DNA of 63,524 nucleotides, filler included, from Nanobdellota archaeon (lineage in GTDB: Archaea > Nanobdellota > Nanobdellia > Woesearchaeales > CAZZGN01), in the NCBI GenBank assembly GCA_051819665.1. It is 7 parts of 5 records of this genome, joined end to end, with 100 filler letters (N's around TTAATTAATTAA, not from the genome) between each part and the next. Parts side by side here need not be neighbours in the genome. Positions count along the whole stretch, not along the records: positions 12,961 to 40,043 come from JBNJDG010000010.1; 6 more parts are not named here. The stretch is one strand, 5' to 3'. This document shows positions 160-40,227 of this stretch, one piece after another. Both the position numbers and the translations under genes were made by a program. Positions within the stretch are counted from its first letter, which is position 1. Every line of letters begins with the position of its first letter. The notes below the pieces were generated by a model, which worked only from the letters and a program-made list of their open reading frames with translations, made no database searches and had not been told where the DNA came from.

Positions 160-246
160 CGCCGCCGCCCGGATTCCCACATAAGGGCCTTGCCCTATAT
201 CAACCCAGGTACGATAATGCTACACAAGGTAGCATAATGGGACAGA
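160..246 (-). repeat. 87-bp unit downstream of tRNA-Ser(CGA): 71-nt insert (176-246) plus duplicated tRNA 3' end (160-175)
   Basis: CGCCGCCGCCCGGATT occurs at 160-175 and 247-262. The intervening 71 nt are identical to 12973-13043, 13060-13130 and the reverse complement of 27439-27509. Confidence 0.95.
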
Positions 247-330
247 CGCCGCCGCCCGGATTTGAACCGGGATATCCCGAAGGAAACCTGCTCTCGAGGC
301 AGGCGCACTACCAGATTATGCGACGACGGC
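247..330 (-). tRNA. tRNA-Ser(CGA) (copy of 27355-27438)
   Basis: Cloverleaf with acceptor stem GCCGTCG/CGGCGGC, anticodon arm CCTGC-CTCGAGA-GCAGG, long variable arm and GGTTCAAATCC T-arm. Confidence 0.95.
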
Positions 331-363
331 ATAACACTTCCGGAGAAAGAGAGCTTCTATTTA

Positions 364-9466: not shown

Positions 9467-9473
9467 AGATGAT

Positions 9474-12960: not shown

Positions 12961-13130
12961 GTGGCCCGGATTCCCACATAAGGGCCTTGCCCTATATCAA
13001 CCCAGGTACGATAATGCTACACAAGGTAGCATAATGGGACAGACGCCGTGGCCCGGATTCCCACATAAGGGCCTTGCCCTATATCAACCCAGGTACGATA
13101 ATGCTACACAAGGTAGCATAATGGGACAGA
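12961..13130 (-). repeat. Tandem 87-bp repeat (at least 2 units, running off the contig) downstream of tRNA-Ser(GGA)
   Basis: CGCCGTGGCCCGGATT at 13131 (tRNA end), 13044 and partially at 12961, separated by identical 71-nt inserts 13060-13130 and 12973-13043. Confidence 0.95.
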
Positions 13131-13214
13131 CGCCGTGGCCCGGATTTGAACCGGGACATCCCGAAGGAAACGAGATTTCCAGTCTCGCGCAATACCAGAT
13201 TATGCGACCACGGC
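13131..13214 (-). tRNA. tRNA-Ser(GGA)
   Basis: Acceptor stem GCCGTGG/CCACGGC, anticodon arm CGAGA-CTGGAAA-TCTCG, long variable arm and GGTTCAAATCC. Confidence 0.95.
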
Positions 13215-13445: not shown

Positions 13446-16019
13446 ATGGACAAGGAGAATAAACTTAAAGAAATGTTTGAATTTAAGACAAAACACCACA
13501 ACAAAGTAAATCAGGAATTCCTGACCTCATATAAGGAATTGTTCTATAAGCTTAAGGAAAAACAGGAGAAAGGAAGTTTGTCCCTTCATGAGGATTATCT
13601 CAACGGTAATGAGCTTGCCCAGAACATCTACCAACAGAAATACTACCTCAAGGATCTCAACGGAGAAGTCATCGAAGACAGGCCGGAGGATGTGTTCACG
13701 AGGATTGCAGCCTCTCTCGCATCGGTAGAGGAGAAGAACAAACAGAGAGAGAACGCAGAGAATTTCTATAATATGCTTTATCAAGGCTATTTCATGCCAG
13801 GCGGCAGGGTCATCGCAGGAGCCGGCGATCTATTCAGATTGAAGACCCTGGCAAACTGTTTCGTCACTGTGATCGGTGATGATAACATAGAATCCATATA
13901 CAATGCCGCCTATGACTGTGCAAGGACATATTCATACGGTGGAGGCATAGGCCTCGATATATCAAAATTAAGGCCGAAAGATTCGGTCGTCCACAATGCT
14001 GCAGATAAATCAACAGGCGCTGTCTCTTTCATGGAACTCTATTCCCTGACTACGGGCCTTATTGGCCAATCAGGCAGAAGAGGAGCCCTCATGATCACCA
14101 TTGATGTTAAACATCCTGATGTGATGGAATTCATCAAAGTGAAACAGAATTCCAACTGGGCGACCAAGCAGGTAGTCCAGCAATGCGAATGGTCAGGAAA
14201 GTTCGATAAGGAAAGCCTTCAGGAGATAGAAAAACAGGTCAGGGAGAACACACAGGTCAGGTTCGCCAACATCAGCCTGAAAGTCAGCGATGAGTTCATG
14301 AAGGCCGTTGAAGAGACCAAAGAGCACGAAGAAGGCTCGATCCTCCTCTATAAGAAACATGACAAGGAAAGGATATACAACAAACCCCAGGACAAGGATA
14401 CTGATTATTCATACAAGCTCCCCTCGAAGGATGTAGAGAATTATGAGATAGTAAAAGAGTTCAGGAATATCGATGAACTCAACGAATATCTGGGCAAGAA
14501 CATAAGTGAAGAGGACCTCAAGGATACAGAGAAGAGGGACATCTACGGAGATTATCTTGTAGAAGGAGGAGAATACGATTATGCGATCCACTACACAGGA
14601 GAGTTCATGACCTATTATGGATCAAAGAACACTCATGATGTAAGGAAGATAATCAACGCGAAAGATATATGGGAAGCTTTTGTCTCAGGGAATTACTCTA
14701 CTGCAGAACCAGGTCTTATATTCTGGGACACGATGAGCAAGTATTCGCCTTCAAACTATATAGGGAAAAGGATCTCTTCCACAAATCCATGCGGAGAAGT
14801 GCCGCTTGAAGACGGAGGCGCATGCAACCTCGGCTCTTTGAACCTCTCGAGGTTTGTGAAGAAAGGCTATAGTGATGAAGCAGAGATCGACTGGGAAAGC
14901 CTGAAAGACACTACGAAGAATGTCGTAAGGATGCTCGATAATGTCATAACATGGAACGTTGCACTGAATCCACTCGAGAAACAGAGGAAGGCTGCGAAAG
15001 AAACAAGGAGGCTGGGAATAGGTGTTATGGGCATAGCAGATATGCTCAATCAGATGGGCATTGGTTATGATGAAGAAGAAGGCCTGAAGATGGTAGAGAA
15101 GGTGACGAACACCATCACGAACACCTGTTATGAAGCTTCCGCAGAGCTTGCAGGTGAAAAGGGTCCCGTCCCCATCTGGGATTTCGATAAATACAGCAGA
15201 GGAAAGTTCTTCAAAGAAGTGCTATCTGAAGAAGTAAAGGAGAAGATAAAGGAGAACGGGCTGAGGAATGTAGCTCTTACATCCATCGCACCGACTGGCT
15301 CGATATCCAATATCGTCCTCGGGTATAAGGGAGAGAAAAAGAATTACATCGGAGTCTCTGGAGGAATAGAACCCATATTCTCCCTTTTCTACGAGAGAAG
15401 ATCAGAAAGCTTCGGCAATAAGAAATTCAAGGTATTCCATTCCACTGTCCAGGCTTATCTGGACGAGAAAGGCCTAAATGAGAAGGCGAAGGATGCCAAG
15501 AACACCGATGATCTGAAAGATATGCTTCCCGAACATTTCTTCAGGACATCCCATTTCATCAAACCCGAGAACAGGGTAAGGATGCAGGGGACCTGCCAGG
15601 GTTACATCGACCACAGCATATCCTCCACCATAAACCTTCCCGAAAGCATAGAACCAGAGACCATATCGGATGTATACCTCAGATCCTGGAAGAACGGCCT
15701 CAAAGGAGTCACCATATACAGGGACGGCAGCAGGTATCCGATCCTGAGCGTCGCAAAAGAGATGTCAGAGTTCCAGGAGAATAAGGACAAATTATTCAGG
15801 GTCAAGGAGGGTGGTGAAGAGAGGATCATGAAAGGAGACGATGTATTCATGGTAGACAATACCCTCACTACGCCTTTCCACGCCATGAAAAAAGGTTATG
15901 ATGTTGAAGAGTCCAGAGATGATAAAGGGGAAGTGGAAAAGGATGATTCAGGCGGCGGAGGAGGCGCCTGTAAAGTGAAGTTCGAGAACGGAAAATTAGT
16001 GAAGGGATGCGGAGACTGA
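13446..16019 (+). CDS. nrdJ: Class II (adenosylcobalamin-dependent) ribonucleotide reductase
   Basis: FMPGGR, ANCFV, GGGIG, GQSGRRGALM, EPGLIF, TNPCGE, CNLGSLNL, IAPTGS, KGVTIYRDGSR and a C-terminal Cys pair. Start taken at MDKENK. Confidence 0.95.
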   Translation: MDKENKLKEMFEFKTKHHNKVNQEFLTSYKELFYKLKEKQEKGSLSLHEDYLNGNELAQNIYQQKYYLKDLNGEVIEDRPEDVFTRIAASLASVEEKNKQRENAENFYNMLYQGYFMPGGRVIAGAGDLFRLKTLANCFVTVIGDDNIESIYNAAYDCARTYSYGGGIGLDISKLRPKDSVVHNAADKSTGAVSFMELYSLTTGLIGQSGRRGALMITIDVKHPDVMEFIKVKQNSNWATKQVVQQCEWSGKFDKESLQEIEKQVRENTQVRFANISLKVSDEFMKAVEETKEHEEGSILLYKKHDKERIYNKPQDKDTDYSYKLPSKDVENYEIVKEFRNIDELNEYLGKNISEEDLKDTEKRDIYGDYLVEGGEYDYAIHYTGEFMTYYGSKNTHDVRKIINAKDIWEAFVSGNYSTAEPGLIFWDTMSKYSPSNYIGKRISSTNPCGEVPLEDGGACNLGSLNLSRFVKKGYSDEAEIDWESLKDTTKNVVRMLDNVITWNVALNPLEKQRKAAKETRRLGIGVMGIADMLNQMGIGYDEEEGLKMVEKVTNTITNTCYEASAELAGEKGPVPIWDFDKYSRGKFFKEVLSEEVKEKIKENGLRNVALTSIAPTGSISNIVLGYKGEKKNYIGVSGGIEPIFSLFYERRSESFGNKKFKVFHSTVQAYLDEKGLNEKAKDAKNTDDLKDMLPEHFFRTSHFIKPENRVRMQGTCQGYIDHSISSTINLPESIEPETISDVYLRSWKNGLKGVTIYRDGSRYPILSVAKEMSEFQENKDKLFRVKEGGEERIMKGDDVFMVDNTLTTPFHAMKKGYDVEESRDDKGEVEKDDSGGGGGACKVKFENGKLVKGCGD

Positions 16020-16108
16020 GCTATCCCTTTCTTTTTCTTAATAAAAGAGTATCTTCTATAAACTTTAAATATCTCCAATACTTCAACCCCCTTGGAGTGA
16101 TTCGTATA

Positions 16109-16678
16109 ATGGCAAAAATATCTATTATCTATGGTTCTGTAAGAGAGGAAAGACAAGGCATAAAGGCCGCAAGGTTCATCAGGAATGAAGTAAAAGAAAG
16201 AGGTCATGAAGCCACTCTGATCGATCCGAAAGAATACGATATACCTTTCCTTGACAGGATGTACAAGGAATTTGAGAAAGCACCAGAGGATATAGAAAAG
16301 ATAGGGAAAATCCTGGATGAGTCTGATGGTTTCATGATAGTGAGCGGAGAATACAACCACAGCATTCCTCCTGCATTAAAGAACCTGCTCGATCATTTCC
16401 AGAAGGAGTATATGTTCAAACCGAGTGCGATAGCCTCTTATTCGGCAGGGTCTTTCGGAGGGGTCAGAGCAGCTGTACATCTGAGAGCCCTCCTGGCGGA
16501 ACTCGGCTGTCCTACTATTTCAAGCATATTCCCCATGTCTGAAGTACAGGACAGTTTTGATGAGAAAGGTAATGCTATAGAAACCGCTTATGAGAAGAGA
16601 ATAGAAAAATTCCTTGATGAATTCGATTGGTATGTAGAAGCGCTTAAAGAACAAAGGAAAAAGGGAACGCCCTTTTAA
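16109..16678 (+). CDS. NADPH-dependent FMN reductase (flavodoxin-like)
   Basis: [26 protein letters not shown] and [12 protein letters not shown]. Confidence 0.92.
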
Positions 16679-16986
16679 GCCTCAACCATCTCGATCTCGA
16701 TGTTAAGGCCTTCAGGTATAGGTACTCTCATTACCAGCCTAAGGGCCCTCTCATCAACACCCAGGTCGATAAGCCTTTTGTGAACCCTCATCTCGTACCT
16801 TTCCCATGAAGCTTTACCCTCCCCGTCAGGGGATTTCCTTGTGGTAATCCTTAACTTCTTTGTGGGCAGAGGAACAGGTCCCCTCATCTCCACTCCTGTC
16901 TTATCAGCTATATCTCTAATCTCCTGAGTGACCTTGTTTACTTTACCAATATCCGTGCTTGCTAGTTTTATTCTTGCTTTCTGCAT
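16675..16986 (-). CDS. rpsJ: Ribosomal protein uS10
   Basis: [17 protein letters not shown] and [14 protein letters not shown]. Confidence 0.97.
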
Positions 16987-17021
16987 TTTCTCTACCCTTA
17001 CAAATTAAAAAAAAGAAGGAA

Positions 17022-18314
17022 TTACTCCTTCTTCTGTAGGTCGATACACATACCTGCACCGACTGTAGCACCTGAGTCCCTTACTGCAAACCTTGACATC
17101 TGCGGGATCTCTTTCTGTGTCTCGATCACCAGTGGAGTCGTCGGCTTAACCTTAACTATAGCTGCATCGCCGTTCTTGACGAAGTCAGGATTCTCTTCGA
17201 GAACCTGGCCGTTAGCCGGGTTAAGCTTCTTCTGGATCTCCGTGATCTGGCATGCCACCTGTGCTGTATGGACATGGAATACAGGTGTATAACCTACAGT
17301 CACAACACTCGGATGGTTGAGTACAACCAGCTGAGCTGTAAACTCTGTAGCCACGGTCGGCACATTGTCTGAATGTCCGAGTACATCTCCTCTGGCAATG
17401 TCCTTCTTACCGATCCCTCTTACGTTGAAACCGATATTGTCTCCAGGACCTGCCTGGTTGTGCTGGGAATGATGCATCTCGATGGTCTTTACCTGACCGG
17501 AAGCGCCTTTTCCGTCCCTGCCCGGAACTACTGTGATCTTATCATTCACCTTGATCACACCTGTCTCAACCTTACCAACAGGTACTACACCGATTCCTGT
17601 GATGTTATAAACATCCTGGATCGGCAGCCTCAGTGGAAGGTCAGTAGGTCTCTGGACAGGCTCGAACTTGTTAAGCTCCTCAAGCAGAGTGCCTCCGCTC
17701 CACCAGGACATGTTGTCTGACTTTTTAACTACATTATCTCCTGTCAGAGCAGCTACAGGCACAAACCTGACCTGCTTCTCAACATTCCATCCTGCAGGCG
17801 CAGCGTGTTTCTTGACATCCTCTACAACTTTGTTGTACCTGTCTTCAGAGAATTCTACCCCTGAGATGTCCATCTTGTTAACCGCGACGATCATCTGATT
17901 CACACCGAAGACCTTGGAAAGTCTCAGGTGCTCCAGAGTCTGTGCGTTAACTCCGTCATTAGCCGCAACAACAAGAACTGCTGCATCAGCCTGGGATGTA
18001 CCTGTGATCATGTTCTTCACGAAATCCTTGTGACCAGGTGCATCGATTATTGTGAAATTGTATTTGTCAGTCTCGAACCTCTTGTGTGCAAGGTCGATCG
18101 TGACTCCTCTTTCTCTCTCTTCCTTAAGGCCGTCCATTGCGAAAGCGAACTCGAATCCGCTCTTGCCAAGTTCTGCTGCCTTATCCTTCAGTCTCCTCAT
18201 TGTCTGTTCGTCTATTGACCCAGTGTCGAACATAATCCTTCCAACTGTTGTGGATTTACCATGATCGACATGTCCAATGAAAACCAAATTCATGTGTTCT
18301 TTTTCCTTAGCCAT
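17022..18314 (-). CDS. tuf: Translation elongation factor aEF-1A
   Basis: [30 protein letters not shown] and RFAVRD. Confidence 0.98.
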
Positions 18315-18412
18315 TATGACCCCTCCTTATATCCCAATAGGTTACCTCTGGGATTTTGTTTTTATATTTAAAGGTTATGATTTGAAATCACAACCGCGGA
18401 ACCCGGAAAGAC

Positions 18413-20590
18413 TCACTCAGATTCCTCATCCTCCTGTTTCATGCCTTTCCTGTTCCTTATCCTGGAAATCACTTTTTCCTGCAGCTCTTCCGGAAGCTTC
18501 TCAAAGATCTGGTCCACCAATGAACTTGAACCTCTTCCGCCGGTGGCTGACCTCAATTCACTTGTAAGGCCGAACATCTCTGCCACAGGGAGTTTTCCTC
18601 TCACTACTGTAAGTTTGCCTTCCTGCTGCATATCAAGGAGCTGTCCTCTCTTGTTGGAGATGAGCTTGGATATCTCACCCATATGCTCTTCAGGCGCCTC
18701 GAATCTCAAGGTCTGCACAGGCTCAAGGAGCTTTGGCTTCGCCTGTTTTATAGCTCCCCTTATACCTTCTCTCACAGCCGGATATAGCTGAGCAGGACCT
18801 CTGTGGATAGCATCCTCGTGAAGCTTCGTGTCGACAAGGCTCACTTTCATGCCAAGTCCCGGTTCACCTGCAAGAGGTGCTGAATTCATGACATCCTCGA
18901 ACATATCGAGGACCATCTCGATGATCTCTCCAATATGGACCTCTCCTCTTGTCTTCTCGACGAAGATGTTACCATTATGAATATCCTTGACCTTGTCTGC
19001 CTCTTTTGTATCCATCCCAAGAGAGACAAGCTTGTCCCTGAGTTCAAGGTCTTTCTTCTTGACCCTTCCCTCATAAAGTTCTCCGGATTTTATAGCATCC
19101 ATTATCTCTTTTGGGAGAGGCTCGACAACGAAATAAAGCTTGTTATGCTTATTCGGCGATTTCCCCTCGAAAGGCGAAGGCGTGCTGGATTCTATGGCCT
19201 CCCTGTAGACCACGATAGGAGGCGAACTCTGTACCTGCACATTCTTCTCCTGGAGGATCCTATTCTCAAGGACTTCCAGATGAAGCTCTCCCATACCGCT
19301 AAGGAGATGCTCGCCCGTCTCTTCATTGATCTCTACCTTTATAGACGGATCTTCCTTGCTTACCTGCTGAAGCACTTCAACGAGCTTCGGGAGATCTGCC
19401 GGATTCTTGGCCTCGATCGCCTTTGTTACGACAGGGTCGAAGATATGGGTTATAGCCTCGAAAGGTTCCTGTTTCTCCTCTGTTATCGTCTCTCCGGGAT
19501 AAGCTTTCGGACCCACAATCCCGATTATGTTCCCGGCAGGTACGTTATCCACTATCTCTCTCTTCTCTCCGTTATATACGAATACCTGCTGGATCCTCGA
19601 ATCCTGTTTACCGACATTCAGATGGACCCTCTGGCCCTTCTTGATGGTTCCGGAGAACAATCTGCCTGCAGCTACTTCACCTGCCTGCGGATCAACGACG
19701 ATCTTGGTCATCACGAAAGCTACAGGCCCGTTAGGATCTGCCTTGGCAAGGGATTTCCCGAATTCACTCTCGGAATCACCGTGCCAGATCTTGGGGATCC
19801 TGTACTGCTGTGCATCCACCGGATTCGGCAGATGAGCGATTACCGCGTTAAGGACGACCTCATGAACAGGCGCTTTCTTAGCGAGCTCATTATAGTCTCC
19901 TCCCGGCTCATAAGCATCGTAGATATCCTTGAAATTCACTTCATTCTCTTTCATATAGGGCATGGACATACCCCAGTTATGGAAAGCAGAACCGAAACAT
20001 ACAGTTCCATCCTCCACCTTCACGTTCCATTTACCTTTCAGCTCCTTAGGCGAAAGGTCATCGATCATCTTGTTCACCTGGTTGATGATCTTCACGAACT
20101 TTGCCTGCATCTGTTCAGGTGAGAGCTGAAGTTCTTTAATGAGCCTGTCAACCTTGTTGATGAAAAGGATGGGTTTTACCCTCTCCCTCAGAGCCTGCTT
20201 GAGAACAGTCTCTGTCTGGGGCATAACACCCTCTACCGCACAGGCAACCACAATGGTTCCGTCAACAGCCCTCATAGCTCTCGTGACGTCACCACCGAAA
20301 TCAACATGCCCCGGTGTATCAATCAGGTTGATCAGATAATCTTCATCCTTGTACTTATGCACCATCGATACAGCTGCTGAATCAATAGTAATCCCTCTCT
20401 CCTGCTCATCATCGTGAAAATCAAGCTGCCTGGCATCCCCTGCAAGGTCTGAAGACATCATGCCGGCGCCTGCAAGCAGATTATCCGAGAAAGTGGTCTT
20501 ACCGTGATCGATATGTGCACAGATAGCTATATTCCTTATGTTCTTAGGGTTCTTCATCGTTGTAGTTACCCTTTCTACCATCTTTGCCAT
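18413..20590 (-). CDS. fusA: Translation elongation factor aEF-2
   Basis: AHIDHGKTT, DTPGHVDF, NKVD and diphthamide loop HEDAIHRGPAQ. Confidence 0.98.
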   Translation of the reverse strand: MAKMVERVTTTMKNPKNIRNIAICAHIDHGKTTFSDNLLAGAGMMSSDLAGDARQLDFHDDEQERGITIDSAAVSMVHKYKDEDYLINLIDTPGHVDFGGDVTRAMRAVDGTIVVACAVEGVMPQTETVLKQALRERVKPILFINKVDRLIKELQLSPEQMQAKFVKIINQVNKMIDDLSPKELKGKWNVKVEDGTVCFGSAFHNWGMSMPYMKENEVNFKDIYDAYEPGGDYNELAKKAPVHEVVLNAVIAHLPNPVDAQQYRIPKIWHGDSESEFGKSLAKADPNGPVAFVMTKIVVDPQAGEVAAGRLFSGTIKKGQRVHLNVGKQDSRIQQVFVYNGEKREIVDNVPAGNIIGIVGPKAYPGETITEEKQEPFEAITHIFDPVVTKAIEAKNPADLPKLVEVLQQVSKEDPSIKVEINEETGEHLLSGMGELHLEVLENRILQEKNVQVQSSPPIVVYREAIESSTPSPFEGKSPNKHNKLYFVVEPLPKEIMDAIKSGELYEGRVKKKDLELRDKLVSLGMDTKEADKVKDIHNGNIFVEKTRGEVHIGEIIEMVLDMFEDVMNSAPLAGEPGLGMKVSLVDTKLHEDAIHRGPAQLYPAVREGIRGAIKQAKPKLLEPVQTLRFEAPEEHMGEISKLISNKRGQLLDMQQEGKLTVVRGKLPVAEMFGLTSELRSATGGRGSSSLVDQIFEKLPEELQEKVISRIRNRKGMKQEDEESE

Positions 20591-20596
20591 TTATAA

Positions 20597-21067
20597 TCAC
20601 CTTCTCTCGTCATCCGCATATAAGAGCTCGAAATCGACCCTCTCATACACAAAAAGTTCATCTTCGTTGAAAAATCTCTTAATCTCATCCTCTGCTACTT
20701 CTTTTGATTCTGATGCATGGATTACATTAGACTGGGTGCTCATAGAAAAGTCCCCTCTTACAGTACCCGGCATAGCCTTGGCACCATGGGTCTCTCCCGC
20801 AAGCTGCCTTACCACTCTTACTGCATCAAGCCCCTCCACTGCTAACAGTATAGAAGGGGAGTGCATCATGAATTCCTTGAGCCTTTTGAAGAAAGGCTTA
20901 TCAGAAAGATGCGAATAGTGCTCATCCAGAGTCTTCTCGTCAAGACGGGCCATCTTAAGCCCCATTATCTTCAGACCTTTCTGTTCGATCCTGCTTATGA
21001 CCTTCCCAACAAGGGATCTGTTAAGAGCATCGGGCTTTATTATTATAAGGGTCCTCTCTATCTTCAT
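20597..21067 (-). CDS. ndk: Nucleoside diphosphate kinase
   Basis: ERTLIIIKPD, PGTVRGDF and NVIHAS. Confidence 0.95.
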   Translation of the reverse strand: MKIERTLIIIKPDALNRSLVGKVISRIEQKGLKIMGLKMARLDEKTLDEHYSHLSDKPFFKRLKEFMMHSPSILLAVEGLDAVRVVRQLAGETHGAKAMPGTVRGDFSMSTQSNVIHASESKEVAEDEIKRFFNEDELFVYERVDFELLYADDERR

Positions 21068-21249
21068 TTTGCCTCCTCCTTTATCCTCTTGTGCTCTTCG
21101 GTCCATTTAGTGGTTCTTGCCTTTCTCTTCAGCTCAAGCATGTTCTTCTCACATTTCCTGCTGTCAAAATAAAGGACCTTACCGTCCTTCTTAACGAACA
21201 TCTTGCCTTTACCCGGTGATATTTCCTTACTACAGAAGCTGCATTTCAT
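21064..21249 (-). CDS. rpl24e: Ribosomal protein eL24
   Basis: KCSFC..ISPGKGKMFVKKDG...KCEKN...KWT. Confidence 0.95.
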   Translation of the reverse strand: MKCSFCSKEISPGKGKMFVKKDGKVLYFDSRKCEKNMLELKRKARTTKWTEEHKRIKEEAK

Positions 21250-21250
21250 T

Positions 21251-21508
21251 TTAAGCCTTACCTCTTCCGCCACGCTTCATCTGCTTGGCTTCGATCTCAG
21301 TCTCTCTGAGCATAAGGGTGTCACCTATCTGGACAGGGCCTCTGACGTTCCTCCTGAGGATCTTATTCTTATCCCTGCCTTCAAGGACCTTGCACCTTAC
21401 AAGGGTCACTGACCCCTGGGTCCCGGCCTTCTCCAATACCTCTTCAACGCTTGCAGGGACTGCATCCGAAAAAGAGACTGATTTTGAATTGTTATTGTCC
21501 TTTGCCAT
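21251..21508 (-). CDS. rps28e: Ribosomal protein eS28
   Basis: VRCKVLEG...RRNVRGPVQIGDTLMLRETEIEA. Confidence 0.95.
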   Translation of the reverse strand: MAKDNNNSKSVSFSDAVPASVEEVLEKAGTQGSVTLVRCKVLEGRDKNKILRRNVRGPVQIGDTLMLRETEIEAKQMKRGGRGKA

Positions 21509-21513
21509 TCTGA

Positions 21514-21855
21514 TCACTTAAGGTTTTCCGCAACCTGTTTAACCTTGTCTTTTGCGTCTCCTTCTTCAACAATCGCTATGCTTCCTGCTCCTACTCCAAG
21601 ACCTGCTGCAACGCCGAGCTCCTCTTTGGATGCTGCTGTTACACAGGGTATACCTTTCTCCTTAGCAAGGAGTGGCAGATGCATTACAACTTCTGGTGGG
21701 TTAACGTCATTAGCCACAAGGACAAGCTTTGCCCTCTGCTTCTCAATCGATTTTGTGACTTCGTTGGTCCCTTTCTTCAGCTTTCCTGATGATTTTGCAA
21801 GTTCTACAGCCTCAAGGGCCGCTTCCATCGTTTCTTTTGATACTTCTTCAGCCAT
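21514..21855 (-). CDS. rpl7ae: Ribosomal protein L7Ae / eL8
   Basis: KKGTNEVTKSIE, DVNPPEVVMHLPLL and SKEELGVAAG. Confidence 0.96.
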   Translation of the reverse strand: MAEEVSKETMEAALEAVELAKSSGKLKKGTNEVTKSIEKQRAKLVLVANDVNPPEVVMHLPLLAKEKGIPCVTAASKEELGVAAGLGVGAGSIAIVEEGDAKDKVKQVAENLK

Positions 21856-21890
21856 TCTAATTACCTCCAATGAGCGTGCAGAAAATTAGC

Positions 21891-21933
21891 ACCTCATTCA
21901 GACACCATTCTGATGTCATCATCAATCATAGGT
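21891..21933 (-). promoter_or_regulatory. Kink-turn (C/D-box) motif in the L7Ae 5' leader
   Basis: Minus strand ATGATGA-CATC-AGAAT-GGTGT-CTGA lies between a TATA-like ATTTATAAA (about 21957-21965) and the GGAGGT RBS of rpl7ae. Confidence 0.7.
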
Positions 21934-22026
21934 CTGGCTTAGGGAAAGGACAGGCATTTATAAATATTTTGGATTATCGCTTTCCCGGACAATAGATTAA
22001 TATTCCTCTGGCTCTCCCCCGTATTC

Positions 22027-22389
22027 ATGGACATACTGGAAAGACTCGGTAAGTCAGGATTCAGGGGCTCATTCCGGCTGGAAGACACCAGCTATATAAA
22101 AAAGAAGGGCCTTGGGATCATAGAGAAGCACGCTTATGAATTCCTTGATAAGAACATAAGAGAAAGACCCGCGAATGACGGGAAGCAAACACCATGGAAA
22201 GGCCATCCTGTCTTCACAGCCCAGCATGCTACCGCTACATGCTGCAGGAAATGCATCGAAAAATGGCATAAGATCCCTAAAGGAAAGAAGCTTGATGAGA
22301 AAGACATGAACTATCTGAAAGACATAATAATGAGATGGATAAAGAGAGAATCCCCTCAGATGAAAGAGAAACAGGAAAGATTATTTTGA
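22027..22389 (+). CDS. DUF4186-family protein
   Basis: PANDGKQTPWKGHPVFTAQHATATCCRKCIEKWH. Confidence 0.92.
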   Translation: MDILERLGKSGFRGSFRLEDTSYIKKKGLGIIEKHAYEFLDKNIRERPANDGKQTPWKGHPVFTAQHATATCCRKCIEKWHKIPKGKKLDEKDMNYLKDIIMRWIKRESPQMKEKQERLF

Positions 22390-22396
22390 GACCAGG

Positions 22397-22576
22397 CTAA
22401 TCACTCTCATCCTCACCATATCCGCATTGGGTGCATACCCTTACCTTGGTAGGTTCTACACCGGCACCGCCGAACTTATGCTGGCTGGCACTGACTACCT
22501 TGAAAGAATGCGAACCGCATCTCTTGCAGGTAAACTCATATTGATAATTATCACCGGTCACTTCCCTGACTGCCAT
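22397..22576 (-). CDS. Small zinc-ribbon protein (59 aa, below the ORF-track cutoff)
   Basis: MAVREVTGDNYQYEFTCKRCG...VRVCTQCGYGEDESD*, with two CxxC motifs. TATA-like TTTATAAA about 25 nt upstream. Confidence 0.75.
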   Translation of the reverse strand: MAVREVTGDNYQYEFTCKRCGSHSFKVVSASQHKFGGAGVEPTKVRVCTQCGYGEDESD

Positions 22577-22670
22577 ATTATAATATAGGAGGTAAAGATT
22601 TTATAAATATTTCCATAATCTGGAGAGCAACAGAAACATTTTTAAATGATATGAGAATCCCAAGCTCTCT

Positions 22671-22928
22671 ATGGAAGGAACAATCACCAATTTCAGGATG
22701 GGAAGACATCATCAGAAGGACAGCCACATGGTAGTTACTGTGAAAGATGTTGACACCAAAGAGAAAGCAGAGAAACTCCTGGGAAAGAAGACAGTCTACA
22801 AGACTGAAGCAGGGAAAGAGCTAAATGGAGAAGTAAGAGCTTCCCACGGCAACAGCGGGGCAGTGAGAGTTGTTTTCGAGAAAGGCATGCCCGGCCAGGC
22901 GGTAGGGAAAAAGGTTGAGATCCAATAA
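22671..22928 (+). CDS. rpl35ae: Ribosomal protein eL33 (L35Ae)
   Basis: ITNFRMGRHHQ and HGNSGAVRVVFEKGMPGQAVG. Confidence 0.93.
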   Translation: MEGTITNFRMGRHHQKDSHMVVTVKDVDTKEKAEKLLGKKTVYKTEAGKELNGEVRASHGNSGAVRVVFEKGMPGQAVGKKVEIQ

Positions 22929-23388
22929 TCCCAACGAAAAGATTCTAGGAGCATTTTTCTTATTGAGGAGAGCCATAGCTTTCATCATAGATTTTATAAT
23001 CGTCGATTTTGTCGTCCTCAGTGCTTTCCAGCCCATAATCAGGAACACAGTAGGTGAAGGCAGCATATCTGAACTGACAGAAACCCTCCGGTCAAGCCCC
23101 GGACTGGTGAATCAGCTCTCTACAATGATGTTTATCGCTTCACTTCTCATCGTACTTTATTTCACGATCCTTGAATGGAAGTTCTCACAGACGCCGGGAC
23201 AGAGACTGATGAGTCTCAGGGTAATGGCTGAAGGGCCCAGATTCTGGCAATATCTGCTCAGTAACGTTTTTATATTTCCTTTCTTCCCCTTCATCCTGTT
23301 ATGGCTAATAGATCCGATATACATGGTAATGACAGGGAGAAGACTCTCAGAGAGGATAGCAGGCCTAAGGATGGTGCAGGTCGTATGA
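22915..23388 (+). CDS. RDD-family membrane protein (start uncertain)
   Basis: RRAIAFIIDF, YFTILE..SQTPGQRLMSLRV and RRLSERIAG. Confidence 0.8.
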   Translation: MRSNNPNEKILGAFFLLRRAIAFIIDFIIVDFVVLSAFQPIIRNTVGEGSISELTETLRSSPGLVNQLSTMMFIASLLIVLYFTILEWKFSQTPGQRLMSLRVMAEGPRFWQYLLSNVFIFPFFPFILLWLIDPIYMVMTGRRLSERIAGLRMVQVV

Positions 23389-24230
23389 GATGGGGATATG
23401 TACTGGGTTTCCTTATCGTGCTCTTCCTGCTCAGCAATTTCATCGCCGGTTTCTTCAATACAGAAGAGATGGGTAATGTGGCAGAGATATCCATTAACGG
23501 GATGATAGCAACTACAGGCGGAGACAGTTTCTCTTCCGTCACAAGCTCAGAAGAGATCATAGAGCTTATAGAGAAGGCGGAGAACAGGGGCATGGAAGCC
23601 ATAATATTCAGGATAAACTCAGGAGGAGGATCCCCTGTAGCTTCCGATGAGATCGGGCAGAAGATTAAGGACCTGAATATGACGACCGTCTCTGCGATAA
23701 GGGATGCAGGAGCTTCAGGTGCTTACTGGGTAGCTACGGCCACAGACCATATCATAGCCAACCGGATGTCCATAACAGGAAGTATAGGTGTGACTTCTTC
23801 CTATCTCGAGCTCTCAGGACTTCTCGAGGATCATAATGTGACATACAGGAGACTCGTTTCAGGAGAATATAAGGACATGGGCTCTCCGTTCAAGGAACTC
23901 TCGGAAGAAGAGAAAGACATGATGATGGATAAGCTTGAGACAATAGAGGGTTTCTTCATAGACGAAGTGGCCGAGAACAGAGAGATGAAGAGAGAGGAAG
24001 TGGAAGAGCTGGCGACAGGAGAATGGTTCCTCGGTTCTGAAGCCAAAGAGGAAGGCCTTGTTGACGAACTGGGAACCATGGAGGATGCAGAGTCCTACCT
24101 TGAAAATGAACTTGACAGGGTGGATATTGTAGAGATGGAGAAGGAAAAATCTTTCTTCGAGAGGCTCTCCAGCGTTTATACAAATAAAGGGAAGATACTG
24201 GAGAAGACTAATCCCCAGCTCCAAAGATAA
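23385..24230 (+). CDS. sppA: Signal peptide peptidase SppA
   Basis: S49 motifs INSGGGSP, GASGAYW and ITGSIGV; ATGA overlap with the RDD gene. Confidence 0.92.
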   Translation: MRWGYVLGFLIVLFLLSNFIAGFFNTEEMGNVAEISINGMIATTGGDSFSSVTSSEEIIELIEKAENRGMEAIIFRINSGGGSPVASDEIGQKIKDLNMTTVSAIRDAGASGAYWVATATDHIIANRMSITGSIGVTSSYLELSGLLEDHNVTYRRLVSGEYKDMGSPFKELSEEEKDMMMDKLETIEGFFIDEVAENREMKREEVEELATGEWFLGSEAKEEGLVDELGTMEDAESYLENELDRVDIVEMEKEKSFFERLSSVYTNKGKILEKTNPQLQR

Positions 24231-24576
24231 GGAGTATTCCCGAGACAATGAGTATTATATTCTTTACTATGGCTATCCCCAGAACATCTCCAAGACTAAA
24301 ACCTATGTTGACGAAATTGTTAACCAGGGGGAAAGCGCCCAAGATTATTATTATAAGGCCGACAATCACACTGACCCATTTCAGGTTATCCTCGTGAGCA
24401 GAGTCGAAAAGGAGGAACAGGCCGCCCATGATGAGCAATATCTCCAGAATTATACCGACTATGCTGAAAGGGAGATCAAAACCTATCAAGCCAATGTTGT
24501 TCAATAGCGGAATCGCTCCGAATGCTGTTGTAATGAAACCCAATATGAGACTTATCCATCCTCTTGTTTCTAACAT
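24208..24576 (-). CDS. Hypothetical four-TM membrane protein
   Basis: Hydrophobic 122-aa ORF. Confidence 0.7.
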   Translation of the reverse strand: MLETRGWISLILGFITTAFGAIPLLNNIGLIGFDLPFSIVGIILEILLIMGGLFLLFDSAHEDNLKWVSVIVGLIIIILGAFPLVNNFVNIGFSLGDVLGIAIVKNIILIVSGILLIFGAGD

Positions 24577-24608
24577 AATTATTACCCAGTATCTCTATTA
24601 TAAAACTT

Positions 24609-25148
24609 TTATTTAAAGTTTGCTATAAAATCCTTTATCTTCTCAACTATCTCTGCTATTGACTTATCAGAAGTGTCGATGACCTTGTCATAATGGCCCT
24701 TATCGAAATAATCAACACCATAATAATGCTTATACCTTTTCTTCTCCGAATCCATCCTGGCAAGCATGTTCTCCTTCGTCTTCTCAAAAGAGGTATTGTA
24801 TCCCTCATCATCTCTCTTTTCATCGAAGACCCTCCTCGCAGAGACCTCAAGGTCAGCGTCAAGGAAGATCTTGACAGAGCCGGGTATGAAGTACCATCCG
24901 AGCCTTGAATCTATGATGATATCATCCTTCTCCTTCCCGAGGTTAATCTGCCTCTGGTCAAGAAGCTTATCTATCGACTTATCATTCTCTGCGAGCTTAC
25001 CAAGTTCCATGAGGGTGAGTCCTCTCTCTTCTGCGATCTCCCTCATCAGGCCGCCGACCGAATGATAACCGAAACCGAGAGAATCGGCAAGTTCCTTCGC
25101 CACTGTCGATTTCCCGCTGCCCGGAAGGCCGGTTATTGTGATTATCAT
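24609..25148 (-). CDS. cmk: Cytidylate kinase, archaeal type
   Basis: GLPGSGKST P-loop and IDSRLG. Confidence 0.9.
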   Translation of the reverse strand: MIITITGLPGSGKSTVAKELADSLGFGYHSVGGLMREIAEERGLTLMELGKLAENDKSIDKLLDQRQINLGKEKDDIIIDSRLGWYFIPGSVKIFLDADLEVSARRVFDEKRDDEGYNTSFEKTKENMLARMDSEKKRYKHYYGVDYFDKGHYDKVIDTSDKSIAEIVEKIKDFIANFK

Positions 25149-25247
25149 CCTAATCCAAAGACTAAAACACATATAATAATCTTTCTGATGAAGGGTCTTT
25201 CATAATCTTTTTAAACCTTCAGGCGGAAGAAAAACACAGGTGATATA

Positions 25248-25586
25248 ATGGGAGAGATAAAAGATTATCTGAATGATCAGGGAGAAAACATGAAAAAGCT
25301 CAAGGAAGCTACACCAGAGAGTATGAAAGGTTTCCATGAGTTCATGACAGCAGTGGAGAAAGACGGGGCCCTTGACGGAAAGACTAAAGAGCTCATAGCA
25401 GTAGCATTATCAGTCAAAGCACAGTGCCACTGGTGCATCTCGATCCATGTGAAGAACTGTCTGGATAAAGGCGCAACAAAGGAAGAGATACTCGAGTCAA
25501 GTTGGGTAGCTGCATTGATGGGAGGAGGACCAAGCCTGATGTATGTGAAACTTGTCCAGGACGCTATTGACGAATTGAGCAGATAA
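25248..25586 (+). CDS. CMD / AhpD-family protein
   Basis: KELIAVALS..CHWCISIH. Confidence 0.9.
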   Translation: MGEIKDYLNDQGENMKKLKEATPESMKGFHEFMTAVEKDGALDGKTKELIAVALSVKAQCHWCISIHVKNCLDKGATKEEILESSWVAALMGGGPSLMYVKLVQDAIDELSR

Positions 25587-25617
25587 TTTTATATATTACT
25601 CCTTCCCATTTATAACT

Positions 25618-26436
25618 ATGAGAGAGGAGTTAATGGAAGACACTGAACCGGGCCTTAGTATGGAGGAAAAAACAACCTTAAGAATAGTAAAAGGGATGAA
25701 ATACATAAGACGCATTGCTTCTAAGAAGAAGGATGAGCCGCAAATTGCCAGAGAGATTGCGAGGTTCTACAACAGGACCAATCATGAGATTGACATAGGT
25801 ACAGCCCGGAGATCTCTTATCTTTTCCCAGGAGAATCATAAAGGACAATACAGGAACAATGACTTTCCAGAGTATGTCCATGGAGCGAATGTCGGATACA
25901 TTACTGCAAGGCTGCTTAACGAAAGCTCTGATGAATTCAGGAAGGCATATAATATAGATGACCTAATAACCGCTTCTAACCTTCATGACACTATAGAGAA
26001 CACTAAGAGATTCGATATAGAGAGGATCTATTCACTTATAGATAATATCAATAATGAGTTCGGGAAGGATCCGCTCGCTATGGCCCTCATAGTTTCTGGA
26101 CTTGATGAATATATACTGGAGAAGCACATGGACGAGATCGAGCATCATACTCAGGAAAATATGAACGGGAAAGACCTCGTGTCCCATATAAAGGATTATG
26201 ACATGGTTCCAGCCGATATGATAAAGACTGCCGACCGTCTTGCAGAGCTGTACAACATGAATGAGATAAGACCCCTATATGGTGAGACAGGAGAAAAGGA
26301 TAAAGAGGAATTCATAAATAATACAAAAGCGGAGATAAAGCCCGTATCAATGAGAGTTGATAAATCCTGTTACCTGAATAATATAAGCATGGAAGTTTTG
26401 CTGGACAGGTTCATAGACTACTTCAGGAATAATTGA
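25618..26436 (+). CDS. HD-domain protein, Mesh1/SAH-like
   Basis: HKGQYR, PEYVH, LHDTIENT and KTADRL. Confidence 0.6.
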   Translation: MREELMEDTEPGLSMEEKTTLRIVKGMKYIRRIASKKKDEPQIAREIARFYNRTNHEIDIGTARRSLIFSQENHKGQYRNNDFPEYVHGANVGYITARLLNESSDEFRKAYNIDDLITASNLHDTIENTKRFDIERIYSLIDNINNEFGKDPLAMALIVSGLDEYILEKHMDEIEHHTQENMNGKDLVSHIKDYDMVPADMIKTADRLAELYNMNEIRPLYGETGEKDKEEFINNTKAEIKPVSMRVDKSCYLNNISMEVLLDRFIDYFRNN

Positions 26437-26487
26437 GAGCAAAGGATTCCACAAACTTTTTTAATGAAATGCAAGTTCTACAGCGTG

Positions 26488-27321
26488 ATGGAATTCAAAG
26501 AGATCAGCATGGAAGACAAGGAATTATTCAACAGCTACCTGAAGGAATACCCAAAGGAATTATCGAAACTGAATTTCACCACCCTATTCTGCTGGCAGGA
26601 ACAGAGAGGAATAGTGTATGCTGAGCATAAAGGCCATCTTATCGTGAAGGATAAAGACAGATATTATGAGCCCATCGGCCCAAAGCCGGCTGAGATGATA
26701 AAGGAGATATTAGATGATGATCCTGAAGGATATTTTGAGAAGGTCTCTGAAGAAGTGGCTGATGAACTTGAAGGCCTTAAAATAGAGGAAAGGAGGGATC
26801 TCTTTGATTATGTCTATGATGCAGAGGAGATGAAAGAGCTGAAAGGGACAAAATTCGAGGAGAAGAGACAGCATATCAACAAGTTCATGAAGAATAACCC
26901 TCAAACATGCTTCCTCGACAATTTCACGAAAGAGGATTTCAAGAGCCTTCAGGAAAGATGGTATAAGATGATGCCTGATGAACAGCTTATCAAAGATGAG
27001 GACAAATCACTGAAGATCGCCCTTGACAATTTCTCAGAACTCGAACTTATGGGTGTATGTGTAAGAGTCAATGAAGAGCTTGTAGGCTTTGCGATAGGAG
27101 AGAGGACAAAGGAAGGAACTTTCGCCGAACATTACGAGAAAGCAGACAGGAACTATAAAGGTGCTTATCAATATGTCCTGTGGGAATTCTGCAAACACCT
27201 GCCGGAAGATGTTAAATTACTTAACAGAGGCCAGGACATAGGCATTCCAGGTATGAGGAAAGCCAAGGAAAGCTATCATCCTGTGAAGATGGTGAAAAAA
27301 TACTCTGTAAGTAAAAAATAA
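26488..27321 (+). CDS. DUF2156-domain protein
   Basis: HYEKAD..YKGAYQ and NRGQDIGIPGMRKAKESYHP. Confidence 0.85.
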   Translation: MEFKEISMEDKELFNSYLKEYPKELSKLNFTTLFCWQEQRGIVYAEHKGHLIVKDKDRYYEPIGPKPAEMIKEILDDDPEGYFEKVSEEVADELEGLKIEERRDLFDYVYDAEEMKELKGTKFEEKRQHINKFMKNNPQTCFLDNFTKEDFKSLQERWYKMMPDEQLIKDEDKSLKIALDNFSELELMGVCVRVNEELVGFAIGERTKEGTFAEHYEKADRNYKGAYQYVLWEFCKHLPEDVKLLNRGQDIGIPGMRKAKESYHPVKMVKKYSVSKK

Positions 27322-27354
27322 TAAATAGAAGCTCTCTTTCTCCGGAAGTGTTAT

Positions 27355-27438
27355 GCCGTCGTCGCATAATCTGGTAGTGCGCCTGCCTCGAGAGCAGGTT
27401 TCCTTCGGGATATCCCGGTTCAAATCCGGGCGGCGGCG
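27355..27438 (+). tRNA. tRNA-Ser(CGA)
   Basis: 84-nt cloverleaf with anticodon CGA, long variable arm and discriminator G; CCA not encoded. Confidence 0.95.
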
Positions 27439-27628
27439 TCTGTCCCATTATGCTACCTTGTGTAGCATTATCGTACCTGGGTTGATATAGGGCAAGGCCC
27501 TTATGTGGGAATCCGGGCGGCGGCGTTTCTAATTCCTTAAATACCGAATTTGAACCTCCGGTTCATGCTCAATAACTCCGTTATTGGTACCAAGGTCGCT
27601 TCGCTCCCCCGGAATCCGGGCGGCGGCG
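27423..27628 (+). repeat. Array of three tRNA 3'-end copies separated by two different structured inserts
   Basis: AATCCGGGCGGCGGCG at 27423 (within the tRNA), 27510 and 27613. Insert A is 27439-27509 (71 nt) and insert B is 27526-27612 (87 nt). Confidence 0.95.
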
Positions 27629-27651
27629 TTTCTAATTTCTTAATACCCCAC

Positions 27652-40143: not shown

Positions 40144-40227
40144 TGCGGGGAGTAGGATTTGAACCCACGTAGGCACTAAGCCAACGGGTCCTAAGCCCGT
40201 CCCGTTTGACCGCTCCGGCATCCCCGC
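40144..40227 (-). tRNA. tRNA-Leu(TAG)
   Basis: GCGGGGA/TCCCCGC-A acceptor stem, ACGGG-CTTAGGA-CCCGT anticodon arm, variable arm and GGTTCAAATCC. Confidence 0.95.

What the first reader, a model, noticed from the sequence alone, without database searches (positions are those of the whole stretch)
27423..27628. Array built from tRNA 3' ends: tiny structured inserts accumulate behind tRNA-Ser(CGA), each regenerating the tRNA end
Seen: the last 16 nt of the tRNA (AATCCGGGCGGCGGCG, T-loop to discriminator) occur three times, separated by two unrelated hairpin-rich inserts of 71 and 87 nt. The layout is repeat-spacer-repeat, with the tRNA end as the repeat. No integrase or transposase lies nearby. 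Established: tyrosine-integrase elements and casposons target tRNA 3' ends, and casposases create roughly 14-15-bp target duplications and can integrate in tandem. Inference: this is a family of non-autonomous, tRNA-targeted mini-elements (MITE-like or RNA-derived), mobilised in trans by an unidentified enzyme.
Basis: partly seen in the sequence, partly recalled or inferred. Interest (0 to 1): 0.85.

Follow-up and report, generated by a model that had tools for sequence, protein, structure and literature searches.

The report
Tiny mobile inserts behind archaeal tRNAs
Behind this serine tRNA gene sit two miniature hairpin-bearing DNA inserts, each followed by a fresh copy of the tRNA's tail; they belong to families that recur behind many tRNA genes across Woesearchaeota and look like very small mobile elements whose mobilising enzyme is unknown.

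Summary
The 16-nt tail of tRNA-Ser(CGA) occurs three times (27423, 27510, 27613), separated by 71- and 87-nt inserts; about 0.01 such matches are expected by chance.

The scan noted the same phenomenon before on another piece of this genome (e1-953348).

New here:
- Insert 1 is 100% identical at five places in the genome. These include sites behind tRNA-Ser(GGA), where the repeat is that tRNA's own tail, so the duplication comes from the target.
- 11 of 40 tRNA calls in this genome carry such inserts.
- Insert 1 ends in a hairpin module, GGTTGATAAGGG-loop-CCCTTATGTGG. A model of it hits 18 of 100 other genomes of the same order. The exact module gave 100 distinct copies in public contigs, behind about 16 tRNA types.
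- The duplication starts in the T-loop (position 57/58) and has a median length of 20 nt.
- No module copy is the end of a kb-scale element.
- The genome has no Cas1, reverse transcriptase, Y1 HUH transposase, serine recombinase or TnpB gene. It has only XerA.

Best reading: non-autonomous, T-loop-targeting mini-transposons defined by one end, moved by an unidentified enzyme. The casposase lead is not supported.

The parts
27355..27438 (+). tRNA-Ser(CGA), intact. Its last 16 nt (27423-27438, T-loop A58 to discriminator) are repeat copy 1.
   Evidence: Rfam RF00005 53.5 bits; ARAGORN.
27439..27509 (+). Insert 1, a family A mini-element of 71 nt.
   Evidence: 100% identical over 71/71 at 5 places in the genome. 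Covariance model R1 scores it 83.7 bits.
27450..27468 (+). Left hairpin of insert 1 (ATGCTAC-cttgt-GTAGCAT).
   Evidence: Minimum-free-energy fold. Kept through an A-T to G-C change in the Glu copy.
27479..27509 (+). Conserved 3' module of family A (GGGTTGATATAGGGCAAGGCCCTTATGTGGG): a hairpin plus invariant flanks. It ends exactly at the junction with the duplicated T-loop.
   Evidence: Alignments A1 and A2. Pair counts: 97% of cells paired, distal pair CG15/UA12/AU3/UG3/GC1. Exact consensus module found in 54 + 60 public loci.
27510..27525 (+). Repeat copy 2 of the tRNA tail. It is the right-hand target duplication of insert 1 and the left-hand one of insert 2.
27526..27545 (+). Trailer-like head (TTTCTAATTCCTTAAATACC). 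It is a slightly diverged copy of the native tRNA trailer at 27629-27647.
   Evidence: Read and compared with C1 and C49.
27546..27612 (+). Core of insert 2 (family B), about 67 nt. Its first hairpin carries the reverse complement of the tRNA T-arm (12 of 13 nt).
   Evidence: Two copies at 96-97% identity behind tRNA-Ser(TGA) on C49. A related core in tandem behind a tRNA-Ser of G083. Antisense match.
27613..27628 (+). Repeat copy 3, followed by the native trailer.
   Evidence: It matches the flank of the form without insert 2.
160..331 (-). Second assembled version (contig C1) of the same locus: tRNA-Ser(CGA), insert 1, tail copy, without insert 2.
12961..13214 (-). tRNA-Ser(GGA) followed by at least 2 tandem copies of insert 1, each followed by the GGA-specific tail AATCCGGGCCACGGCG. 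The contig breaks inside the array.
   Evidence: C10:1-99 equals C10:88-186.

Best explanation
The two inserts are members of two families of very small (about 30-130 nt), non-coding, hairpin-bearing mobile elements. They insert in one orientation just behind tRNA genes.

Insertion duplicates a stretch of the target. For family A the duplication begins in the T-loop (tRNA position 57/58) and ends a few nucleotides past the tRNA end, with a median of 20 nt. The tRNA therefore stays intact, and a displaced copy of its tail lies behind each element. Repeated hits give arrays of the form tail-insert-tail.

For family A (insert 1), the only part conserved across the order is a 3' module of about 30 nt: a hairpin with invariant flanks that abuts the duplicated T-loop. 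I take this module to be the cis site recognised by the mobilising machinery.

Shown:
- the family relationships and copy numbers;
- that the duplication comes from the target;
- the fixed right junction and the looser left junction;
- differences in content between strains;
- conservation across the order.

Inferred:
- that insertion works by two staggered strand attacks about 20 bp apart, as in a transposase or a Cas1-type integrase;
- that the enzyme is supplied in trans. Its identity is unknown.
For: 1. The duplication is derived from the target.
- Insert 1 is 71/71 identical behind tRNA-Ser(CGA) and tRNA-Ser(GGA), yet both flanking tail copies carry the locus-specific bases, GG versus CA.
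- One subfamily of about 59 nt lies behind at least 8 different tRNA tails, each with its own duplicate.
- Two orthologous non-tRNA loci carry 1 and 2 units flanked by an 11-nt repeat.

2. It occurs across this genome.
- 9 of 32 tRNA genes called by ARAGORN have the pattern; with introns allowed, 11 of 40 calls do.
- Model R1 gives 16 full hits in G000.

3. It occurs across the order.
- R1 hits 18 of 100 other genomes of the same order.
- The exact module is in 54 genome loci and 60 metagenome loci.
- 33 of 55 module copies lie next to a tRNA called by ARAGORN.
- 66 of 100 distinct copies align, anchored at the T-loop, to a copy upstream.

4. The geometry is regular.
- Identity between the two copies is 0.9-0.98 over positions 58-73 and then decays.
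- Duplication length has a median of 20 nt; 33 of 66 are 18-20 nt.
- Inserts have a median of 68.5 nt.

5. The module is constrained in both sequence and structure.

6. Content differs between strains.
- C1 and C10 are 99.99% identical over 14.5 kb but differ in the presence of insert 2 and in array content.
- A contig from a separate run joins 27507 to 27611.
Against: - No candidate enzyme was found. G000 has only XerA. It has no Cas1, Y1 transposase, reverse transcriptase, resolvase or TnpB.
- No module copy is the end of a kb-scale element. All 40 anchored copies in metagenome contigs lie 33-150 nt from the tRNA copy. Viral contigs give 0 exact hits.
- There are no inverted termini.
- The duplication length is not strictly fixed: it ranges from 15 to 40 nt, and is 35 nt for insert 2.
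- The left copy around insert 2 differs from the right copy at 2 positions. This fits import from another strain as well as it fits a fresh duplication.
- C1 and C10 differ by 2.3% in the flank, so the presence or absence of insert 2 need not be recent.
- Families A, B and C have different ends. That would need either several enzymes or one enzyme that cares little about sequence.
Confidence: 0.58

Rival explanations
1. The inserts are miniature integrative elements (CIME-like 'attP-only' units), or scars of larger elements. They would be integrated by a tyrosine recombinase that crosses over in the T-loop. That recombinase could be the host XerA, in the manner of IMEX elements, or a foreign integrase. 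The repeats would then be att cores.
For: - An identity block running from the T-loop to the tRNA end is the classic signature of a tDNA att site (established knowledge; also the reading of e1-953348).
- XerA is the only recombinase found in G000.
- 5 of the 18 element-bearing relatives likewise show a single tyrosine recombinase.
- The T-arm and the module are both inverted repeats.
Against: - A fixed attP core cannot give target-specific repeats at about 16 tRNA types for near-identical elements. It also cannot give identical GG or CA bases in both copies at the two Ser loci.
- The module's spacer varies from 3 to 8 nt with compensating stem changes. This argues for a folded hairpin rather than a double-stranded core site with a fixed spacer.
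- No integrase lies next to any copy.
- Identical 71-nt units at several loci exclude independent erosion scars.
Confidence: 0.12
2. The inserts are SINE-like retroposons. An RNA ending in the conserved 3' hairpin would be reverse-transcribed from a nick in the T-loop, and the second junction would fall near the end of the tRNA transcript.
For: - The 3' end is conserved while the 5' part is variable or missing, down to inserts that are the module alone (33-44 nt).
- The 3' junction is precise and the 5' junction looser.
- The distal edge of the duplication usually lies in the T-rich trailer.
- The 87-nt unit appears as closed contigs in metatranscriptome libraries, at depth 22 and 18.
Against: - RVT_1 gives no match in G000.
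- Only 3 of the 18 element-bearing relatives have a reverse transcriptase above the cut-off, with 1 more below it. Among all 100 relatives, 20 have one above the cut-off.
- Within subfamilies the left termini are consistent.
- The contigs from RNA libraries cannot prove transcription.
Confidence: 0.08
3. There is no dedicated enzyme. Hairpin-rich units would be copied between tRNA loci by host break repair with template switching, using the universal T-loop sequence GAATCC as microhomology.
For: - The right junction lies in the only sequence that all tRNA genes share.
- Several unrelated families (A, B, C and the Thr insert) show the same layout.
- Arrays contain truncated units and foreign or decayed tails.
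- No transposase was found.
Against: - It does not explain why about 21 module positions are invariant across different families of the order, while the neighbouring displaced tails decay.
- The duplication length clusters at 18-20 nt.
Confidence: 0.1
4. The units are functional parts of the tRNA transcription unit: a processing, termination or insulating RNA, or an intron-like piece excised as a circle. In this reading they are not selfish DNA.
For: - The module is strongly conserved, with stem covariation.
- It can pair with the duplicated T-loop (GGGTT with AATCC).
- Contigs of the unit are present in RNA libraries.
- Two loci have the module directly upstream of a small RNA that looks like a C/D-box sRNA (the motif is recalled).
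Against: - The distribution is patchy: 18 of 100 genomes, at different tRNAs in different genomes, and it varies between strains.
- Fold energies are no better than shuffled sequence (z = -0.69 and -1.51).
- Rfam gives no match.
- No tRNA interrupted by a unit was found.
Confidence: 0.07
5. The array is an assembly artefact.
For: - Contigs break inside the arrays.
- The tandem copy number is unresolved: there is a k = 99 loop at the start of C10.
Against: - Insert 2 differs at 2-3 of 67 positions from its only relatives in the assembly, and its trailer-like head differs from the other tRNA-Ser trailers read.
- The same architecture is found in more than 100 independent public contigs, including finished chromosomes.
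- Independent run contigs reproduce the insert 1-to-tail junctions and the form without insert 2.
Confidence: 0.02

Closest known systems
Casposons and CRISPR Cas1-Cas2 integration
   Same: - The target is the 3' end of a tRNA gene.
- Insertion is directional.
- A target segment is duplicated, and tandem arrays of repeat-insert-repeat can build up.
   Different: - No Cas1 in this genome or in any of the 18 element-bearing relatives.
- No terminal inverted repeats.
- Elements are 30-130 nt long, with only one conserved end.
tDNA-integrating elements of tyrosine integrases and their non-autonomous derivatives (CIMEs; tycheposon satellites). Recalled; the tycheposon preprint was seen only as a search listing.
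   Same: - A partial duplicate of the tRNA 3' end starts in the T-loop.
- The tRNA is restored.
- Arrays form at tRNA genes.
- Mobilisation is in trans.
   Different: - Near-identical elements here sit at many different tRNAs with target-specific repeats, which a fixed attP does not allow.
- No integrase gene was found apart from XerA.
- Size is about 70 nt.
IS200/IS605-derived PATEs (mobilised by a single-strand-specific HUH Y1 transposase)
   Same: - Subterminal hairpins lie on one strand.
- There are no inverted termini.
- The elements are small and non-coding.
- The cleavage point lies a few nucleotides 3' of a hairpin foot.
   Different: - IS200/IS605 elements make no target duplication (recalled).
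- No Y1_Tnp or TnpB in this genome.
Eukaryotic SINEs with a LINE-matched 3' stem-loop
   Same: - The 3' module is conserved and the 5' part varies.
- The target duplication is fairly long and somewhat variable in length.
- The elements are non-autonomous.
   Different: - This is a prokaryote.
- There is no resident reverse transcriptase.
- The elements are far shorter.
- Insertion is site-specific, at the T-loop.

Membership tests
Casposon-derived mini-element | A Cas1-family casposase is available in the genome | tested here: not met
   PF01867 gives 0 matches in G000. Among 100 relatives, 5 have Cas1, and none of these is one of the 18 genomes positive for model R1.
Casposon-derived mini-element | Terminal inverted repeats | tested here: not met
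   By eye, the left end of insert 1 and the reverse complement of its right end share only CCCA. The left ends of family A vary freely. No formal inverted-repeat scan was run.
Casposon-derived mini-element | Target duplication of 14-15 bp (recalled figure) | tested here: not met
   Median 20 nt, range 15-40 nt; 33 of 66 are 18-20 nt.
Tyrosine-integrase integrative element / CIME | Flanking direct repeats that form an identity block from the T-loop to the tRNA 3' end | tested here: met
Tyrosine-integrase integrative element / CIME | The element carries a fixed attP core, so one element type goes with one tRNA target | tested here: not met
   Identical insert 1 sits at Ser(CGA) and Ser(GGA) with locus-specific repeats. 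One subfamily sits at 8 or more different tRNA tails.
Tyrosine-integrase integrative element / CIME | A cognate integrase in the element or elsewhere in the genome | tested here: inconclusive
   Only XerA (NF040815, 219.2 bits against a cut-off of 220, next to the ribosomal protein L3 gene) and a degenerate lysine-rich ORF. Whether XerA could act here was not testable.
IS200/IS605 PATE | A Y1 HUH transposase (TnpA) is available | tested here: not met
   PF01797 gives 0 matches in G000. PF07282 gives only a match below the cut-off.
IS200/IS605 PATE | Insertion without target duplication | tested here: not met
   A duplication is present at nearly all copies.
SINE-like retroposon | A partner reverse transcriptase | tested here: not met
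   PF00078 gives 0 matches in G000. It is above the cut-off in 3 of the 18 element-bearing relatives, against 20 of all 100.
SINE-like retroposon | Conserved 3' end with a variable or truncated 5' part | tested here: met
Classical MITE (DDE transposase) | Inverted termini and a short duplication of fixed length | tested here: not met
CRISPR array | Unique spacers between identical repeats, with cas genes | tested here: not met
   The 'spacers' are multi-copy elements. The repeat is the tRNA's own tail and differs between loci. A true CRISPR array elsewhere in the window has an unrelated repeat.
Archaeal tRNA intron | It interrupts the tRNA, which is complete only after removal at a bulge-helix-bulge motif | tested here: inconclusive
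   The tRNA is complete without any removal. No interrupted tRNA was found when inserts were removed in silico at 5 loci. The bulge-helix-bulge motif itself was not modelled.

The most novel reading that the evidence does not exclude
These are a previously unrecognised class of prokaryotic mobile element. They are units of about 30-130 nt defined by a single 3' hairpin module. They home to the T-loop of any tRNA gene and duplicate about 20 bp of it. They would be moved either by a core host enzyme, such as XerA or a tRNA- or DNA-processing enzyme acting on folded single strands, or by an RNA-mediated, SINE-like route without a canonical reverse transcriptase. This would be a natural, Cas1-independent counterpart of repeat-spacer array growth.
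Probability: 0.2. Interest if true: 0.9.

Novelty: new variant of a known kind. Interest (0 to 1): 0.66.

Why it matters
Small streamlined DPANN genomes are thought to carry few transposons, yet about a quarter of the tRNA genes in this genome carry these units.

A conserved 30-nt module that homes to the tRNA T-loop, generates a duplication of about 20 bp, and has no recognisable transposase points to an unknown integration activity. That activity could be of interest as a site-specific insertion tool.

It also bears on practical and evolutionary questions:
- how tRNA-gene fragments arise and mislead annotation;
- why MAG assemblies break at tRNA genes;
- how repeat-insert arrays can grow without Cas1.

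Tried and rejected
- **Casposase / Cas1.** Absent in G000 and in all 18 element-bearing relatives.
- **Resident reverse transcriptase.** Absent in G000 and not enriched among element-bearing relatives.
- **Y1 HUH transposase, TnpB, resolvase.** No matches.
- **Y2_Tnp.** No match, but the control genomes were silent too, so this says nothing.
- **Second 'integrase' on C8.** It is a lysine-rich ORF that matches only the first part of the domain.
- **Autonomous partner.**
  - The exact module gave 0 hits in viral contigs.
  - A looser pattern gave 28 viral hits, none with the GGTT...GAATC context. My rough estimate is that about 60 are expected by chance.
  - Among the 40 module copies in metagenome contigs that could be anchored to a tRNA copy, none is more than 150 nt from it.
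- **Known RNA family.** Rfam finds only the tRNA, at the gathering threshold and at E <= 1.
- **Fold energy.** Not better than shuffled sequence on the + strand.
- **Intron reading.** In-silico removal of the insert at 5 loci revealed no interrupted tRNA.
- **XerA/dif resemblance.** The text of the dif paper gives no sequence, so this could not be tested.
- **Expression.** The three runs are metatranscriptome libraries held only as contigs. The parts of the stretch without cover, and the depth figures, prove nothing about transcription.
- **Antisense matches between inserts and their own tRNA.** Only family B has a notable one; the other matches of 8-10 nt were not followed up and could be chance.
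- **Literature.** Seven searches gave no description of these units in the held library. Subscription journals and supplements were not seen.

Full report
**1.

The window is a composite of contigs joined by N44-TTAATTAATTAA-N44 linkers. The finding lies in contig C10, which spans window 12961-40043.

tRNA-Ser(CGA) occupies 27355-27438 (Rfam 53.5 bits; ARAGORN). Its last 16 nt, AATCCGGGCGGCGGCG, recur exactly at 27510 and 27613. With up to 2 mismatches the window holds 7 matches against 0.01 expected, and 0 of 100 shuffles reach 7. The spacers are 71 nt (insert 1, 27439-27509) and 87 nt (insert 2, 27526-27612).

The repeat around insert 2 is in fact 27 nt exact (27508-27534 = 27611-27637), and about 35 nt with two differences. 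The first 20 nt of 'insert 2' are therefore a slightly diverged copy of the native trailer.

**2. The duplication comes from the target, not from the element**

Insert 1 is 71/71 identical at five places in the genome. These are:
- behind tRNA-Ser(CGA) in contigs C10 and C1;
- behind tRNA-Ser(GGA), once in C1 and at least twice in tandem in C10.

Behind Ser(GGA) every copy is followed by that tRNA's own tail, AATCCGGGCCACGGCG. An element carrying a fixed attachment core would leave its own two bases in one of the two copies. Here both copies match the locus at both loci.

**3. The genome carries several such families**

- ARAGORN finds 32 tRNA genes, of which 9 are followed 66-85 nt downstream by at least 13 nt of their own tail.
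- With introns allowed, 11 of 40 calls have the pattern. That is nine distinct genes: Ser-cga, Ser-gga, Ser-tga, Glu, Met, Thr, Arg, Pro and Lys.
- Reading these loci shows:
  - family A (insert 1 and its relatives);
  - family B (insert 2; two more copies at 96-97% identity behind Ser-tga on C49);
  - family C (behind Arg, Ser-gga and Pro);
  - a separate insert behind Thr.
- Seven tRNA genes have their 3' side within 200 nt of a contig end. These repeats therefore break the assembly.

**4. Two assembled versions of the locus differ in content**

C1:141-14644 is the reverse complement of C10:81-14585 at 99.986% identity. The 177 nt beyond the Ser(CGA) array are only 97.7% identical.
- C1 has insert 1 alone behind Ser(CGA). 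Behind Ser(GGA) it has insert 1 plus a family C unit.
- C10 has insert 1 plus insert 2 behind Ser(CGA), and at least 2 copies of insert 1 behind Ser(GGA).

These are two strains, so the difference need not be very recent.

A contig from a separate public run (an RNA library, salt lake) joins 27507 to 27611. This is the form without insert 2. In two runs the 87-nt unit (insert 1 plus tail) appears as a 117-nt closed contig, preceded by CCTTATGTGGG, at depth 22 and 18. That fits a tandem array or a circle, and it does not prove transcription.

**5. Family A is spread across the order and is defined by its 3' module**

- A covariance model built from six G000 copies gives 16 full hits in G000. 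It hits 18 of 100 other genomes of the same order, each from a different family.
- In context, nearly all of these hits lie just 3' of a tRNA and are followed by a copy of that tRNA from the T-loop to the 3' end.
- The consensus module TTGATAAGGG-N3-8-CCCTTATGTGG occurs exactly in 54 loci of species-representative genomes. Most are labelled Woesearchaeota or Nanoarchaeota (some bins carry other labels), and two are finished chromosomes. It also occurs in 60 metagenome loci.
- It gives 0 hits in viral contigs.
- Of 55 genome copies, 41 have an exact upstream copy of at least 9 nt of their right flank. 33 lie next to a tRNA called by ARAGORN, covering about 16 amino-acid types.
- In an alignment of 38 sequences, the six proximal stem pairs and the flanks are invariant. 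The distal pair covaries (CG 15, UA 12, AU 3, UG 3, GC 1), and 97% of cells are paired.
- The left part of the element is free to vary. It often holds a hairpin with a GAGCGAAGCGAA-like loop, and it can be almost absent, giving inserts of 33-44 nt.
- One subfamily of about 59 nt sits behind at least 8 different tRNA tails.

**6. Geometry of the insertion**

- When the right flank is anchored at the T-loop, identity to the tRNA is 0.70 at position 57 and 0.9-0.98 for most of positions 58-73 (lower at 62-64 and 67). It then decays gradually.
- Pooling 100 distinct copies, 66 can be anchored. The duplication length from position 57 has a median of 20 nt. 33 of 66 are 18-20 nt, 44 of 66 are 17-23 nt, the tail reaches 40 nt, and values of 60 reflect tandem units.
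- Inserts have a median of 68.5 nt and range from 28 to 302 nt.
- Older copies show decay of the displaced right-hand tail, as expected for a non-functional copy.
- Two orthologous non-tRNA loci carry one and two units flanked by an 11-nt repeat.
- All 40 anchorable metagenome copies lie 33-150 nt from the tRNA copy. None is the end of a kb-scale element.

**7. The enzyme is unknown**

G000 is 96% complete. It has:
- one tyrosine recombinase, XerA (219.2 bits against a cut-off of 220, next to the gene for ribosomal protein L3);
- one degenerate lysine-rich ORF;
- no Cas1, Y1 transposase, RVT_1, resolvase or TnpB.

Among the 100 relatives:
- Cas1 is in 5 genomes, none of them among the 18 that bear elements.
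- Reverse transcriptase is above the cut-off in 20 genomes, of which 3 are among the 18.
- Five of the 18 have a single tyrosine recombinase.

The casposase and retroposon readings therefore lack their enzyme. A fixed-core integrase reading conflicts with points 2 and 5.

**8. Family B (insert 2)**

Its conserved part is its 5' core, GAATTTGAACCTCCGGTTCA. This contains the reverse complement of the tRNA T-arm, matching 12 of 13 nt of its own tRNA. A related core lies in two 114-nt tandem units behind a tRNA-Ser of G083.

Families A and B both contain T-arm-like sequence. This suggests that the same machinery recognises the T-arm in both the target and the element. That is inference.

**9. Verdict**

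The structure is real. It belongs to an order-wide set of miniature elements that target the tRNA T-loop and duplicate part of their target. I found no description of them in seven literature searches.

The scan noted the same pattern earlier on another piece of this genome (e1-953348) and read it as ordinary integration scars. The target-specific repeats, the conserved module and the lack of any coding partner argue for something less ordinary. The mechanism remains open.

Noticed in passing
window 9470-9800 (start of contig C2): A CRISPR array with the 30-nt repeat ATTTCAAAAATACTATATTAGATTTAAGAC, at least 5 repeats. The first and fourth spacers are identical. No Cas1 was found anywhere in this genome.
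   Followed up: partly
window 40144-40227 (-): Contig C14 starts exactly at the 3' end of tRNA-Leu(TAG). On C40, tRNA-Arg(GCG) ends 28 nt before the contig end. In all, 7 tRNA genes have their 3' side within 200 nt of a contig end, which suggests more unassembled arrays.
   Followed up: partly
window 1-4368 and 12961-27600: A 14.5-kb segment bounded by the inverted tRNA-Ser(CGA) and tRNA-Ser(GGA) genes is assembled twice, in C1 and C10, at 99.99% identity. The sequence just outside it is 2.3% diverged. The tRNA arrays therefore mark a recombination boundary between strains.
   Followed up: partly
L144 and L148 (metagenome contigs): The family A module lies directly upstream of what looks like a C/D-box small RNA (a GTGATGA...CTGA pattern; the motif is recalled, not tested). 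There is no tRNA and no flank duplication, and L148 has truncated modules upstream.
   Followed up: no
L063 (-) around 1400-1560: A module copy followed by a tRNA-tail-like sequence (…AATCCCACCCCCGGCGA) and preceded by a short sequence resembling a tRNA 5' end. ARAGORN finds no tRNA with or without the insert.
   Followed up: partly
L022 / L040 (G093) and L072: tRNA-Leu genes or fragments appear to carry insertions inside the T-loop itself. Partial tail copies in arrays are themselves hit by further units.
   Followed up: no
G000 contig C5:53873-54277 (L004): A complex array lies behind tRNA-Arg(TCT). In order it holds a family C unit, a family A unit, a further unit (family E) also seen inverted at the start of C47, and a second family C unit. 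It ends with a tail that differs at 2 positions and a 12-nt stub of another C unit.
   Followed up: partly
many family A copies in L045-L159: The left hairpins share a loop motif, GAGCGAAGCGAA or variants of it (it contains GCGAAGC, which I recall as a very stable DNA mini-hairpin). Its role is unknown.
   Followed up: no
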